A stretch of 64,000 bases of DNA from a virus (lineage: Duplodnaviria; Caudoviricetes). The translations under genes were made by a program, and so were the position numbers. The notes beneath the pieces are model-generated. The model did no database searches and was not told the DNA's origin. It saw nothing but the letters and a program-made list of their open reading frames with translations. Below are positions 15,920 to 18,506 of the stretch, one piece after another (within the stretch, counting starts at the first letter, position 1; the number at the start of each line of letters is the position of its first letter). The stretch spans positions 12,649 to 76,648 of IMG/VR virus record IMGVR_UViG_3300047160_003616. One strand, written 5' to 3'.

Positions 15920-16648
15920 CTACGGCATGGTGATGCCGTGTGGCACGATCACGTCGCCCTGGGTCATCAGCAGGGTCTCGAAATCGCTGAAGCTCACATC
16001 GAATTGGCCCCTGCGCCCGAAATCCGGGCCCCAACTGGTCAGACAGGTGACCAGCTGAGTGCTGTAGTTGATACCCAGGGCCAGGTACTCATGTCCCCCG
16101 GCCACGTTCTCATCAGTCAGCGCCCCGATATGCACCAGCCCGGAGGGGTCCGGGTTGAACATAGAGCGCGTCCATAATGTGCCCACCAAACATGGCGTGA
16201 CCTGCAAAGCGGCACGAAATTCAGCGAAGCCGAAACAATGCTGGTATCTGTCGGCCCAATTCAACTCCACGGCGGCCTTAGCTATATCCAATCCATCGCT
16301 GCCCCCATCATGGGGCGGATAAAAATACTCCGGGTCGCCCTCCTCGTGGGTGGCCACCGAGTAGAACTGCAGCGCCAGGGACTCGGTGCACCAACTCACC
16401 TTCTTGGCCCGCCGCACCGGGGCGGCGAAGTCGGTATTAAAAAATCCGGCCATCGCATTGCCGGTGCAGGCGTTGGTGTTCCATTGATTCAAAATTGGCT
16501 GGGTATAAGACCACAGCGTCGTTACGTCACGTGACGGTTTGTCGGCCGCAAAGGCGTAGTTAAGCGAGCGCGTGTCGTGATGGATGTGACGCCCCAACCG
16601 GTAGGGCGCATCGGTGGGCACCGGCAATTTATGAATGATCTCGGCCAT
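15920..16648 (-). CDS. Papain-like (C1A-type) cysteine peptidase
   Basis: Q.N.N.C (catalytic Cys), GGHE (His), TSWG in place of NSWG, GRRGQF. Confidence 0.8.
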   Translation of the reverse strand: MAEIIHKLPVPTDAPYRLGRHIHHDTRSLNYAFAADKPSRDVTTLWSYTQPILNQWNTNACTGNAMAGFFNTDFAAPVRRAKKVSWCTESLALQFYSVATHEEGDPEYFYPPHDGGSDGLDIAKAAVELNWADRYQHCFGFAEFRAALQVTPCLVGTLWTRSMFNPDPSGLVHIGALTDENVAGGHEYLALGINYSTQLVTCLTSWGPDFGRRGQFDVSFSDFETLLMTQGDVIVPHGITMP

Positions 16649-16681
16649 AAAAAACCTCCTCTTCTTCGGAGGAGGTTTTTT
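16649..16681. terminator. Bidirectional intrinsic terminator ending the pentamer array
   Basis: AAAAAA-CCTCCTC-7 nt-GAGGAGG-TTTTTT. Confidence 0.85.
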
Positions 16682-16683
16682 GG

Positions 16684-17372
16684 GTAAAGCCCCTGCCTTG
16701 CCGAGCCCGGCCTAGCCACGCCCAACCTGGCCTTGCCAGGCCTTGCCGAGCCCAGCCTTGCCCGGCCGCGCCGCGCCAAGATCTAGCCTCCTCACCTATT
16801 AGGTGGGGAGATGAAGGTAAAACCCCTGCCCTGCCCCGCCGGGCCGAGCCAGGCCGTGCCCGGCCTTGCCGATGCCGCGCCGCGCCAAGCCACGCCCTGC
16901 CTAGCCATGGCAAGTCTGTTGAAAAATTGAGTTGTGATAAAGCCCCTGCCCTGCCATGCCGCGCCTTGGCTAGGCGAGCCACGCCGTGCCATGCCGTGCC
17001 AAGCCTAGCCACGCCTAGCCGGGCCTAGCCGCGCCGGGCCACGGCCTGCCGAGCCCTGCCATGGCAAGTCTGAAGTTGTGTGTAAAACCCCTGCCCTGCC
17101 TAGCCCAGCCGTGCCGGGCCGAGGCCAGCCACGCCGCGCCTAGCCATGCCAGGCCATGCCTCGCCACGTCAAGTCATGAAATTATTGTTAAAGCCCCTGC
17201 CTTGCCTAGCCTCGACACGCCACGCCCAGGCCCGCCCGGCCATGCCAGGCCTCGCCGAGTCCGTGAAAGATTTGAATTGTAGGTAAAGCCCCTGCCTCGC
17301 CGAGCCGAGCCCCAGCCTTGCCTTGCCTCGCCGTGCCACGCCACGCCATGGCTTGCCAAGCCGCGCCCTGCC
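16684..17372 (-). ncRNA. Array of six GGC-NN pentamer-repeat units (candidate guide RNAs, VIPR-like)
   Basis: Units 17283-17372, 17188-17262, 17082-17175, 16937-17072, 16817-16918, 16684-16788; each about 12-24 GGCNN pentamers ending in GGCAGGGG(C/T)TTTA, separated by AT-rich linkers. Confidence 0.85.
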
Positions 17373-17376
17373 ACGA

Positions 17377-17934
17377 TTATTTGTCGCCGAGCAGCCCTTC
17401 CAGTCGTGTCAGCCGTTCCTGCACTTTATCCAGCTCGGTGGTGGTGTGCTCCTTGGTGCTGCGATGATCCTGCTGAATCAGTTGCATCGCTGCGGCCAAC
17501 TCACGCTGTTGCACGTCCAGGCGGCGGCAGAAGTCCACCTGGGCGGCGAATGCCGCCCCCACCACCTCAAAGGCTTGCCGGGCGATGGGGTCCAGGGCCA
17601 ACCAGTCCACATGAGTCACCGCGTTTTGCCCGCGCACCAGAGCCTTGGAGGACTTGCGCTGATGCCGCCGGGCCAGCCGCATGTGCTCGGGGGCCTGAAG
17701 CACGCGATAACCCGTGTTAATCACCGCGTCAATAGCACGGTTGTCGACACGTTCAAACTCGCGGGCGGCCCGCTGGGTGGCCTGTTGCAGCACCCGGCGA
17801 TCCTTATCCCCGTCGAGACCCAGCGCCTCACCCATCGCCTCGTAGGTCAGTGTCCCATCCACGGGGGTGGTCCTGAGCAGGTCGTAGATGACCCGCCAGC
17901 GGGCTCGCTCGTTGAGCGGGGAGAACGGGCTCAT
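17377..17934 (-). CDS. HTH/coiled-coil accessory protein of the RAMP-pentamer locus
   Basis: LTYEAMGEALG winged-HTH-like segment, C-terminal heptads; ATGA-coupled to the RAMP gene; stop 4 nt before the array. Confidence 0.75.
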   Translation of the reverse strand: MSPFSPLNERARWRVIYDLLRTTPVDGTLTYEAMGEALGLDGDKDRRVLQQATQRAAREFERVDNRAIDAVINTGYRVLQAPEHMRLARRHQRKSSKALVRGQNAVTHVDWLALDPIARQAFEVVGAAFAAQVDFCRRLDVQQRELAAAMQLIQQDHRSTKEHTTTELDKVQERLTRLEGLLGDK

Positions 17935-18506
17935 GACTGCTTGACCCCCATCACCTCAAAGCGACCGTAGAGGGGACGACGCTCGCCCAGTCCGATCAAC
18001 AGCCCCGCCGTGGTGGCGATGCGTTCGATGTCCACCAACTCCAGCAGGGCCGTGTCCAGGGTGCCGTTGACCTCCACCGCCCACTCGGGGAACCACGGGC
18101 GCACTCGCATCACCCGGCTGGCCCCCACCTTGACGCTGGCCCGGTAGTAGAACGTGGCCGCGTACAGCTCCTCGACGGTGCGCGGGCCCTTGTAGCCCAG
18201 CGCGATCACGTCGTCCTTGATCAACACGCCCTGCTCCACCTGCTTGCCCTGTTTGGTCTTGCGACCACCCTCGATCAGGCACTTGAAGATGTTGGCACCG
18301 GGGATATAGGGGCCCTCCACTTCATCGAAGTAGATCCCGCCGAAAAACTCGGTGCGGGCCAGCAGGTGATGGTCCTCGTCGGTCTTGTTGCGTTTTCGGG
18401 TCAGGCGCTTGACCTCTTTGGCCGCGGGATCGAGCGGATCGGCCAGCCGGGCACTGTGCATGATCAGCGGACGGGTTCCCCGAAGGGTGAGGGTGAAATC
18501 AATCAT
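17931..18506 (-). CDS. Stand-alone Cas7/RAMP-like protein (Vipr-like)
   Basis: FTLTLRGTRPLIMH (beta1), PYIPGANIFKCL (RAMP P.IP motif), RVRPWF, C-terminal G-loop AGLLIGLGERRPLYGRFEV. Confidence 0.8.
   Translation of the reverse strand: MIDFTLTLRGTRPLIMHSARLADPLDPAAKEVKRLTRKRNKTDEDHHLLARTEFFGGIYFDEVEGPYIPGANIFKCLIEGGRKTKQGKQVEQGVLIKDDVIALGYKGPRTVEELYAATFYYRASVKVGASRVMRVRPWFPEWAVEVNGTLDTALLELVDIERIATTAGLLIGLGERRPLYGRFEVMGVKQS

What the first reader, a model, noticed from the sequence alone, without database searches (positions are those of the whole stretch)
17283..17372. Unit A independently spells SVTT(I/M)(L/F)(N/K)AL, a second motif of the same exonuclease family
Seen: the plus-strand NN series TT TT TC GT AC AC AT TT AA GC CT AC reads (F/L)(F/L) S V T T (I/M)(L/F)(N/K) A L T in the same codon-phase decoding. 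Established: SVTTIL..L.KP is the N-terminal motif of the phage exonuclease family that also carries YAGTLD. Inference: two of six guides hit the same gene family, which is unlikely by chance and supports the gapped code and a role against competing phages or resident prophages.
Basis: partly seen in the sequence, partly recalled or inferred. Interest (0 to 1): 0.9.

Follow-up and report, generated by a model that had tools for sequence, protein, structure and literature searches.

The report
VIPR guide aimed at rival exonuclease
The repeat tract is one of six guide RNAs of a phage VIPR system, a CRISPR-like RNA-guided DNA silencer first described in 2026 preprints, and its code most resembles a conserved motif of a recombination exonuclease gene of rival actinobacterial phages, although no actual target sequence was found.

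Summary
With one base skipped per unit they read (F/L)(F/L)SVTT(I/M)(F/L)(N/K)ALT.

The locus is a VIPR system, which is already in print (bioRxiv 10.64898/2026.04.26.720920, .720927, 2026.10.15.759431). It has a Vipr RAMP gene (36% identical to the phage SUSP2 protein), an accessory gene, six same-strand GGC-NN guide RNAs and a terminator. This scan has met VIPR before on other DNA.

Unit D's ten-unit core matches exactly the YGYAGTLDLI motif of an actinophage RecE-like/Cas4-family exonuclease in 11 viral contigs. That family also carries P(G/S)VTTI(L/I) near its N-terminus.

Scored against a family profile, unit A reaches 20.9 bits at exactly that motif. No shuffle of 10,000 reached this score. 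Among 301 natural guides from 81 VIPR loci, units D and A are the two outliers.

At the DNA level unit A has no target. Exact scans of viral, genome and metagenome collections gave only chance hits, and the best match in an exonuclease gene is 16 of 24 read bases.

The parts
17931..18506 (-). vipr gene (191 aa), a stand-alone RAMP/Cas7-like protein
   Evidence: 36% identity over 184 aa to Escherichia phage SUSP2 gp040. The AlphaFold model (pLDDT 92.7) hits Csm3/Cmr4 chains. H17, K33, R136 and R177 align with the SUSP1 contact residues H17, K33, R138 and R179; the G-loop reads E-R-R where SUSP has D-W-R.
17377..17934 (-). vap-like accessory gene (185 aa), overlapping the vipr stop
   Evidence: 29% identity (E 1e-14) to Gordonia phage MakoManhole gp77, annotated 'DNA binding protein'. 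Weak local similarity to SUSP2 gp039 (E 3e-4). No Pfam family.
17283..17374 (-). vrRNA unit A: 16 GGC-NN repeats with a one-base slip, followed on the RNA by the shared 3' tail AGGGGCUUUAC
   Evidence: The tract begins 2 nt after the vap stop codon.
17315..17374 (-). Unit A 5' tract of 12 repeats (called A2 in the analyses) that decodes to (F/L)(F/L)SVTT(I/M)(F/L)(N/K)ALT. The SVTTI(L) read bases lie within 17325-17354.
   Evidence: Profile score 20.9 bits at exonuclease motif I.
16948..17072 (-). vrRNA unit D (25 repeats). The core at 17013-17062 spells YGYAGTLDLI.
   Evidence: The exact core occurs in 11 IMG/VR contigs, always in frame at exonuclease motif II. Profile score 41.8 bits. All 7 tblastn hits of the decode lie in exonuclease genes.
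17199..17263 (-). vrRNA unit B (13 repeats)
   Evidence: No target found.
17093..17177 (-). vrRNA unit C (17 repeats)
   Evidence: No target found.
16828..16918 (-). vrRNA unit E (18 repeats with a one-base slip)
   Evidence: The first half gives a weak, non-significant profile match between exonuclease motifs II and III (p 0.0175 uncorrected).
16695..16779 (-). vrRNA unit F (17 repeats)
   Evidence: No target found.
16655..16672 (-). Intrinsic terminator hairpin followed by a U run, closing the vipr-vap-vrRNA operon directly before the next gene's ATG
   Evidence: -22.3 kcal/mol, z -3.5.

Best explanation
Unit A is one of six guide RNAs (vrRNAs) of a VIPR system in a 76.6-kb actinophage-like virus. 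The inferred mechanism follows the 2026 preprints. The minus strand is transcribed as vipr, vap, six vrRNAs and a terminator. One Vipr protomer binds each GGC of the RNA and presents the two following bases. These pair with double-stranded DNA while every third target base is skipped, and the bound complex represses transcription. The twelve repeats on the 5' side of unit A are most likely directed at the part of a rival phage's RecE-like/Cas4-family exonuclease gene that encodes N-terminal motif I, P(G/S)VTTI(L/I). This would be the same gene whose catalytic motif II (YGYAGTLDLI) unit D reads. Because the skipped base falls on the wobble position, the guide reads the amino-acid-determining bases of a conserved motif. 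Shown here: the repeat anatomy, the homology of the protein to Vipr, the co-occurrence of protein and arrays, the exact motif II match of unit D, and the significant family-level match of unit A. Inferred, not shown: expression and processing of unit A, binding, repression, and the existence of a real gene that matches unit A base for base.
For: System identity: w191, the 191-aa vipr product, is 36% identical to the SUSP2 Vipr and has a RAMP fold. In 46 of 80 IMG/VR loci encoding a homologue there are GGC-NN arrays, all but one on the gene's strand. A terminator follows unit F. The mechanism comes from the preprints. Target family: the unit D core is exact in 11 contigs, all at motif II of one exonuclease family; a 16-base control-like pattern gave 14 chance hits, so about 0.05 are expected for 20 bases. 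Only skip = 1 gives a signal. The decoded unit D hits only exonuclease genes among 50,697 phage records, the best being Gordonia phage Frokostdame gp57 at 13 of 14 residues. The family has the (G/S)VTTI(L/I) motif about 100 codons upstream. Unit A's decode scores 20.9 bits there, against a shuffle null of 9.6 +/- 1.8 with maximum 19.5 (0 of 5000) and 0 of 5000 random draws. Among 602 orientation tests of 301 natural guides, unit D has z 15.2, unit A z 7.9 and the next best z 4.0. The phage has no homologue of this exonuclease and no self-target.
Against: No sequence with a good base-level match to unit A was found. The 11-unit pattern gave 0 hits in viral contigs. The 10-unit pattern gave 1 out-of-frame hit, in a Bacteroidota genome, and 0 in metagenomes. 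The two 8-unit half patterns gave 14 and at least 117 hits, none in an exonuclease gene. The best unit A match in 80 exonuclease genes is 16/24 read bases, with a longest exact run of 5 units. That is no better than chance in the phage's own genome and not significant at the DNA level (p 0.11). A plain count of decode-consistent residues over 2 million six-frame positions gives 8/12 both at an exonuclease motif I and at one unrelated site. Unit A carries a one-base slip and one deviant triplet, so it may be partly decayed. Unit D likewise has no full-length target: the best match is 32/50 bases. No expression data could be obtained.
Confidence: 0.65

Rival explanations
1. Unit A is a functional VIPR guide, but its resemblance to exonuclease motif I is coincidental. 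Its true target is some other, unsampled sequence.
For: The DNA-level match is at chance level. A count-based scan finds an equally good 8/12 hit at an unrelated site. Chance hits of up to 22/24 read bases occur in AT-rich viral contigs for a guide this short. Units B, C, E and F also have no identifiable target.
Against: The profile score at motif I exceeds all 10,000 null series and every guide outside this window among 301 natural guides from 81 VIPR loci. The family was fixed beforehand by unit D, so there was no free choice of family. The published systems show many guides converging on one locus.
Confidence: 0.22
2. Unit A is a decaying remnant of a former exonuclease-directed guide. It is still recognisable at the motif level but no longer matches any circulating target or assembles properly.
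For: There is a one-base slip after the fourth repeat and one GCC-for-GGC triplet on the RNA. No target was found in three large collections. The preprint notes frequent internal degeneracy of vrRNAs.
Against: Fourteen of 16 triplets and the 3' tail are intact. Units D and C carry similar deviant triplets, and unit D's core is still exact in real genes. Failure to find a target is expected for an uncultured phage whose rivals are unsampled.
Confidence: 0.1
3. The pentamer tract is not a guide at all. It would be a protein-binding DNA array, a G-quadruplex-forming element or a translated repeat.
For: (GGCNN)n could in principle form two-tetrad quadruplexes, and long ORFs cross the tract.
Against: One-base slips break any reading frame. 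The arrays keep strict same-strand linkage to a Vipr homologue in dozens of loci. The protein is homologous to the experimentally characterised SUSP-clade Vipr. Unit D reads a real gene motif only under the 1-nt skip rule.
Confidence: 0.03

Closest known systems
Type II VIPR system of Escherichia phage SUSP1 and the Pseudomonas fulva prophage (bioRxiv 10.64898/2026.04.26.720920 and .720927)
   Same: A Vipr RAMP protein of about 190 aa (36% identical to the SUSP2 orthologue), followed by a small accessory gene. Same-strand arrays of GGY-NN repeats are each capped by an invariant 3' tail. The 1-nt skip rule applies, with the skipped base on the codon wobble position. No self-targets.
   Different: The host range is actinobacterial rather than enterobacterial or Pseudomonas. 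The guides are longer (12-25 repeats against the 9-16 reported). The tail is a short AGGGGYUUUA segment with no predicted pseudoknot. The G-loop reads E-R-R instead of D-W-R. The predicted target is a recombination exonuclease rather than satellite or lysis-lysogeny genes. Nothing was tested experimentally here.
SUSP1 vrRNA4 reading the catalytic core of the F5 satellite recombinase (bioRxiv 10.64898/2026.10.15.759431)
   Same: A guide aligned with codon periodicity, so that it reads the amino-acid-determining bases of a conserved enzyme motif in a competitor. This is argued to block escape by synonymous mutation.
   Different: There the targets are real sequences (89% of read bases across 119 satellites) and the effect was shown by infection assays. 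Here unit D matches real genes only over 10-13 units, and unit A matches only at the family-profile level.
Class 1 CRISPR crRNA-Cas7 backbones (Csm3/Cmr4)
   Same: A RAMP fold with thumb and G-loop, one protomer per repeat unit of the guide, and periodic flipped bases.
   Different: There is no CRISPR array, no adaptation genes and no other cas genes. The period is 5 nt with three bases sequestered, and pairing is noncontiguous.

Membership tests
VIPR system | Stand-alone Vipr RAMP protein homologous to the SUSP-clade protein | tested here: met
   tblastn and BLASTP give 36% identity, E 5e-41, over 184 of 191 aa to SUSP2 gp040. Foldseek top hits are Csm3/Cmr4 chains, E 2e-5.
VIPR system | Residues that read the GGY motif and the skipped base (SUSP1 H17, K33, R138, D177, W178, R179) | tested here: inconclusive
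   H17, K33, R136 (= R138) and R177 (= R179) are kept. D177 is replaced by E175 and W178 by R176 in this protein, although the family consensus is GDWRP.
VIPR system | Tandem YNNGG / GGY-NN repeats (at least 4 units) on the strand of vipr, with variable NN | tested here: met
   Six units of 13-25 repeats. 46 of 80 homologous loci have same-strand arrays.
VIPR system | Invariant 3' tail after each repeat tract | tested here: met
   All six units end AGGGG(C/U)UUUA on the RNA. No stable fold or pseudoknot was predicted for the tail.
VIPR system | Adjacent vap accessory gene | tested here: met
   A 185-aa gene overlaps the vipr stop. It is homologous to MakoManhole gp77 (E 1e-14) and weakly to SUSP2 gp039.
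VIPR system | Targets obey the 1-nt skip rule | tested here: met
   Unit D against 80 exonuclease genes gives a local score of 26 at skip 1 (null 11.2 +/- 1.4) and no signal at skip 0, 2 or 3.
VIPR system | A natural target with at least 80% NN match for this guide (unit A) | tested here: not met
   Exact and half-pattern scans of viral, genome and metagenome collections found none in a plausible gene. The best exonuclease match is 16/24. These scans cannot allow mismatches, so they are not exhaustive.
VIPR system | vrRNA expressed and bound by Vipr | not testable with these tools
Actinophage RecE-like / Cas4-family PD-(D/E)XK exonuclease (proposed target) | Motif II YGYAGTLD and motif III DLK, annotated as exonuclease | tested here: met
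   ORFs at all 11 unit D hits carry these motifs. There is a weak PF12705 hit. 268 phage records match, annotated exonuclease, Cas4 family or RecE-like, often next to RecT.
Actinophage RecE-like / Cas4-family PD-(D/E)XK exonuclease (proposed target) | N-terminal motif I P(G/S)VTTI(L/I)..G.PKPAL matched by the unit A decode | tested here: met
   Motif census in 65 of 80 genes. Unit A's decode gives its best profile alignment exactly there, at 20.9 bits.

The most novel reading that the evidence does not exclude
An actinophage VIPR array devotes two separate guides to the two most conserved motifs (N-terminal motif I and catalytic motif II) of rival phages' RecE-like exonuclease. It reads only codon positions 1-2, so one array could silence the exonuclease-RecT recombination module across a whole family of competitors that differ at the DNA level. 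The guides may be tuned to the family consensus rather than to one genome.
Probability: 0.3. Interest if true: 0.45.

Novelty: new member of a known kind. Interest (0 to 1): 0.3.

Why it matters
The result extends the newly described VIPR systems from enterobacterial and Pseudomonas phages to actinobacterial phages, including relatives in cultured Gordonia and Mycobacterium phages. It also gives a concrete, testable target class: the exonuclease half of the RecE/RecT-like recombination module of competing temperate phages. If two guides of one array do read two conserved motifs of one gene, that would support the published idea that the wobble-skipping code serves escape-proof targeting of protein-coding motifs. 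The basic mechanism and this idea are already in print, so the gain is incremental.

Tried and rejected
1. Rfam gathering scan of the whole window: nothing.
2. Translated repeat or pentapeptide protein: rejected, because one-base slips break the frames.
3. Exact pattern scans for unit A. The 11-unit pattern gave 0 hits in viral contigs. The 10-unit pattern gave one out-of-frame hit inside an RsgA-like gene of Thermaurantimonas and 0 in metagenomes. None of these was in an exonuclease gene, and most were in AT-rich contigs with stop codons in frame.
4. Scan of the variable part of unit D in metagenomes: 13 chance hits, none extending into YAGTLD.
5. DNA-level permutation test of units A, B, C, E and F against exonuclease genes and the flanks of the hit loci: not significant.
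6. Reverse-order and RNA-sense decodes of unit A: no match.
7. Self-targeting and an own exonuclease homologue: none.
9. The genome search 'relatives': not available for a virus record.
12. ARAGORN found no tRNA in the MakoManhole spacer elements.

Full report
**What is in the sequence.** The gap between two minus-strand genes (16649-17376) holds six units. On the + strand each begins GTAAA(G/A)CCCCT and continues with 13-25 pentamers GCC-NN. Unit A, next to the upstream gene, has four pentamers (17294-17313), a one-base slip (A at 17314) and twelve more pentamers (17315-17374). With one base skipped per unit they read (F/L)(F/L)SVTT(I/M)(F/L)(N/K)ALT. In the analyses below, A2 means these twelve pentamers.

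**What the locus is.** All flanking genes are on the minus strand, so the RNA would read (GGC-NN)n followed by AGGGGCUUUAC. A strong hairpin with a U run closes the array on that strand.

- The 191-aa protein two genes upstream (w191, 17931-18506) has no Pfam family. It folds with high confidence (pLDDT 92.7) into a RAMP fold whose best PDB matches are Csm3/Cmr4 subunits.
- In 46 of 80 IMG/VR loci that encode a homologue, GGC-NN arrays lie beside the gene, and all but one array are on the gene's strand.
- A literature search found the 2026 preprints that describe this arrangement as VIPR. A Vipr RAMP protein and vrRNAs of alternating GGY/NN bind double-stranded DNA by pairing only the NN bases while skipping one target base per unit. 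The skipped base usually falls on the codon wobble position.
- The window's protein is 36% identical over 184 residues to the Vipr of phage SUSP2. It keeps H17, K33, R136 and R177, the counterparts of the SUSP1 contact residues, but has E-R-R where SUSP has D-W-R in the G-loop.
- The 185-aa neighbour (w185, 17377-17934) resembles MakoManhole gp77, annotated 'DNA binding protein', and weakly resembles the SUSP2 accessory protein.

Earlier follow-ups of this scan reached the same identification on other genomes.

**The exonuclease family.**

- Unit D's ten-unit core, written as an NNx pattern, occurs exactly in 11 IMG/VR contigs. Each time it is in frame at YGYAGTLDLI of one protein family.
- A 16-base pattern of similar kind gave 14 chance hits. 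About 0.05 would therefore be expected for 20 specified bases, so the unit D result is not chance.
- Only the 1-nt skip gives a signal.
- The family is a PD-(D/E)XK nuclease annotated as exonuclease, Cas4 family exonuclease or RecE-like in 268 phage records, mostly from Microbacterium, Arthrobacter and Streptomyces phages with a few from Mycobacterium, Gordonia and Rhodococcus. In the two records I fetched, RecT follows one or two genes downstream.
- A tblastn of the decoded unit D peptide hit only exonuclease genes. The best hit was Gordonia phage Frokostdame gp57, with 13 of 14 residues.
- No gene matches unit D over its whole 25 units. The best is 32/50 bases, and a scan of its variable part in metagenomes gave only chance hits.

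**Unit A against that family.** The family carries P(G/S)VTTI(L/I)..G.PKPAL about 100 codons upstream of motif II. The serine form occurs in 8 of 65 genes.

At the DNA level unit A finds no target:

- The 11-unit pattern gave 0 hits in viral contigs.
- The 10-unit pattern gave one out-of-frame hit in a Bacteroidota genome and none in metagenomes.
- The two 8-unit halves gave 14 and at least 117 hits, none in an exonuclease gene.
- In 80 exonuclease genes the best match at motif I is 16/24 read bases, with a longest exact run of five units. That is no better than the best chance match in the phage's own genome and not significant by permutation (p 0.11).
- A raw count of decode-consistent residues over 2 million six-frame positions gives 8/12 once at motif I and once at an unrelated site.

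At the level of the family profile the picture differs:

- Each dinucleotide was scored by the residues it allows against a weighted profile of 80 family members. Unit A's best ungapped alignment falls exactly on motif I with 20.9 bits.
- The shuffle null is 9.6 +/- 1.8 bits with a maximum of 19.5. None of 5000 shuffles and none of 5000 random draws from the array's own dinucleotides reached the observed score.
- As an empirical null, 301 natural guides were called in 81 VIPR loci (the window's array plus 80 IMG/VR loci) and scored in both orientations. Their z scores are centred on 0.05 (sd 1.23). Unit D has z 15.2, unit A z 7.9 and the next best z 4.0.
- Because unit D fixed the family in advance, this is a fair test of 'does A also point at that family?', and the answer is yes.

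**Reading.** The main rival (0.22) is that the resemblance is coincidence. A further 0.1 goes to a decayed former exonuclease guide, given the slip and one deviant triplet.

The phage has no such exonuclease and no self-target, which fits an outward-directed weapon. The biological role, silencing the recombination module of competing temperate phages or prophages, is inferred from the preprints' results in E. coli and Pseudomonas. It was not tested here.

**Limits.** The collection scans take only exact IUPAC patterns, so targets with a few mismatches would be missed. Tools for the closest relatives' contigs and for sequencing runs were unavailable. The host is unknown.

Noticed in passing
L002:2178-2242 and L002:2296-2362 (Gordonia phage MakoManhole, between gp76 and gp77): Next to the Vipr and vap homologues (gp78, gp77) lie two degenerate pentamer tracts. 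On the gene strand each is followed by a tRNA-like minihelix: an acceptor-type stem plus a GGGG-UUCGACU-CCCC T-arm. ARAGORN calls no tRNA, and the only Rfam hit is a sub-threshold match to mascRNA-menRNA (E 0.65). This may be a tRNA-like processing signal between vrRNAs. The preprint mentions hammerhead-interspersed arrays but not tRNA-like ones.
   Followed up: partly
L001:2980-3233 (Mycobacterium phage Quico, between gp56 and gp57; also Florinda and Donkeykong): Cluster F-type mycobacteriophages (Cheoctovirus) carry an uninterrupted tract of about 49 GCC-NN pentamers. Beside it lies gp57 (199 aa), a distant Vipr homologue (hhalign 96%, E 2e-9, with the GVGDWRP G-loop). VIPR-like loci therefore exist in cultured, genetically tractable mycobacteriophages.
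   Followed up: partly
window 17980-17988 (codons 174-176 of the vipr gene): The G-loop reads G-E-R-R-P where the family consensus and SUSP have G-D-W-R-P. The Asp that reads G1 and the Trp that stacks on G2 are both replaced, yet the guides still use GGC.
   Followed up: partly
L034 and L150 (both IMGVR_UViG_3300037499_000174): One VIPR-bearing phage contig itself encodes an exonuclease of the family that the window's guides appear to read. The target family therefore also occurs in VIPR-armed phages.
   Followed up: no
window 16828-16872 (first nine repeats of unit E): The decode gives a weak profile match (12.7 bits, uncorrected p 0.0175) to the stretch between exonuclease motifs II and III. 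It is not significant after correction, but it would be a third guide on the same gene if real.
   Followed up: partly
window 16649-16685: The terminator hairpin of the VIPR operon contains the Shine-Dalgarno-like GGAGG of the next gene (peptidase, 15920-16648), and its U run abuts that gene's ATG. Termination and translation initiation of the downstream gene may therefore be coupled.
   Followed up: no
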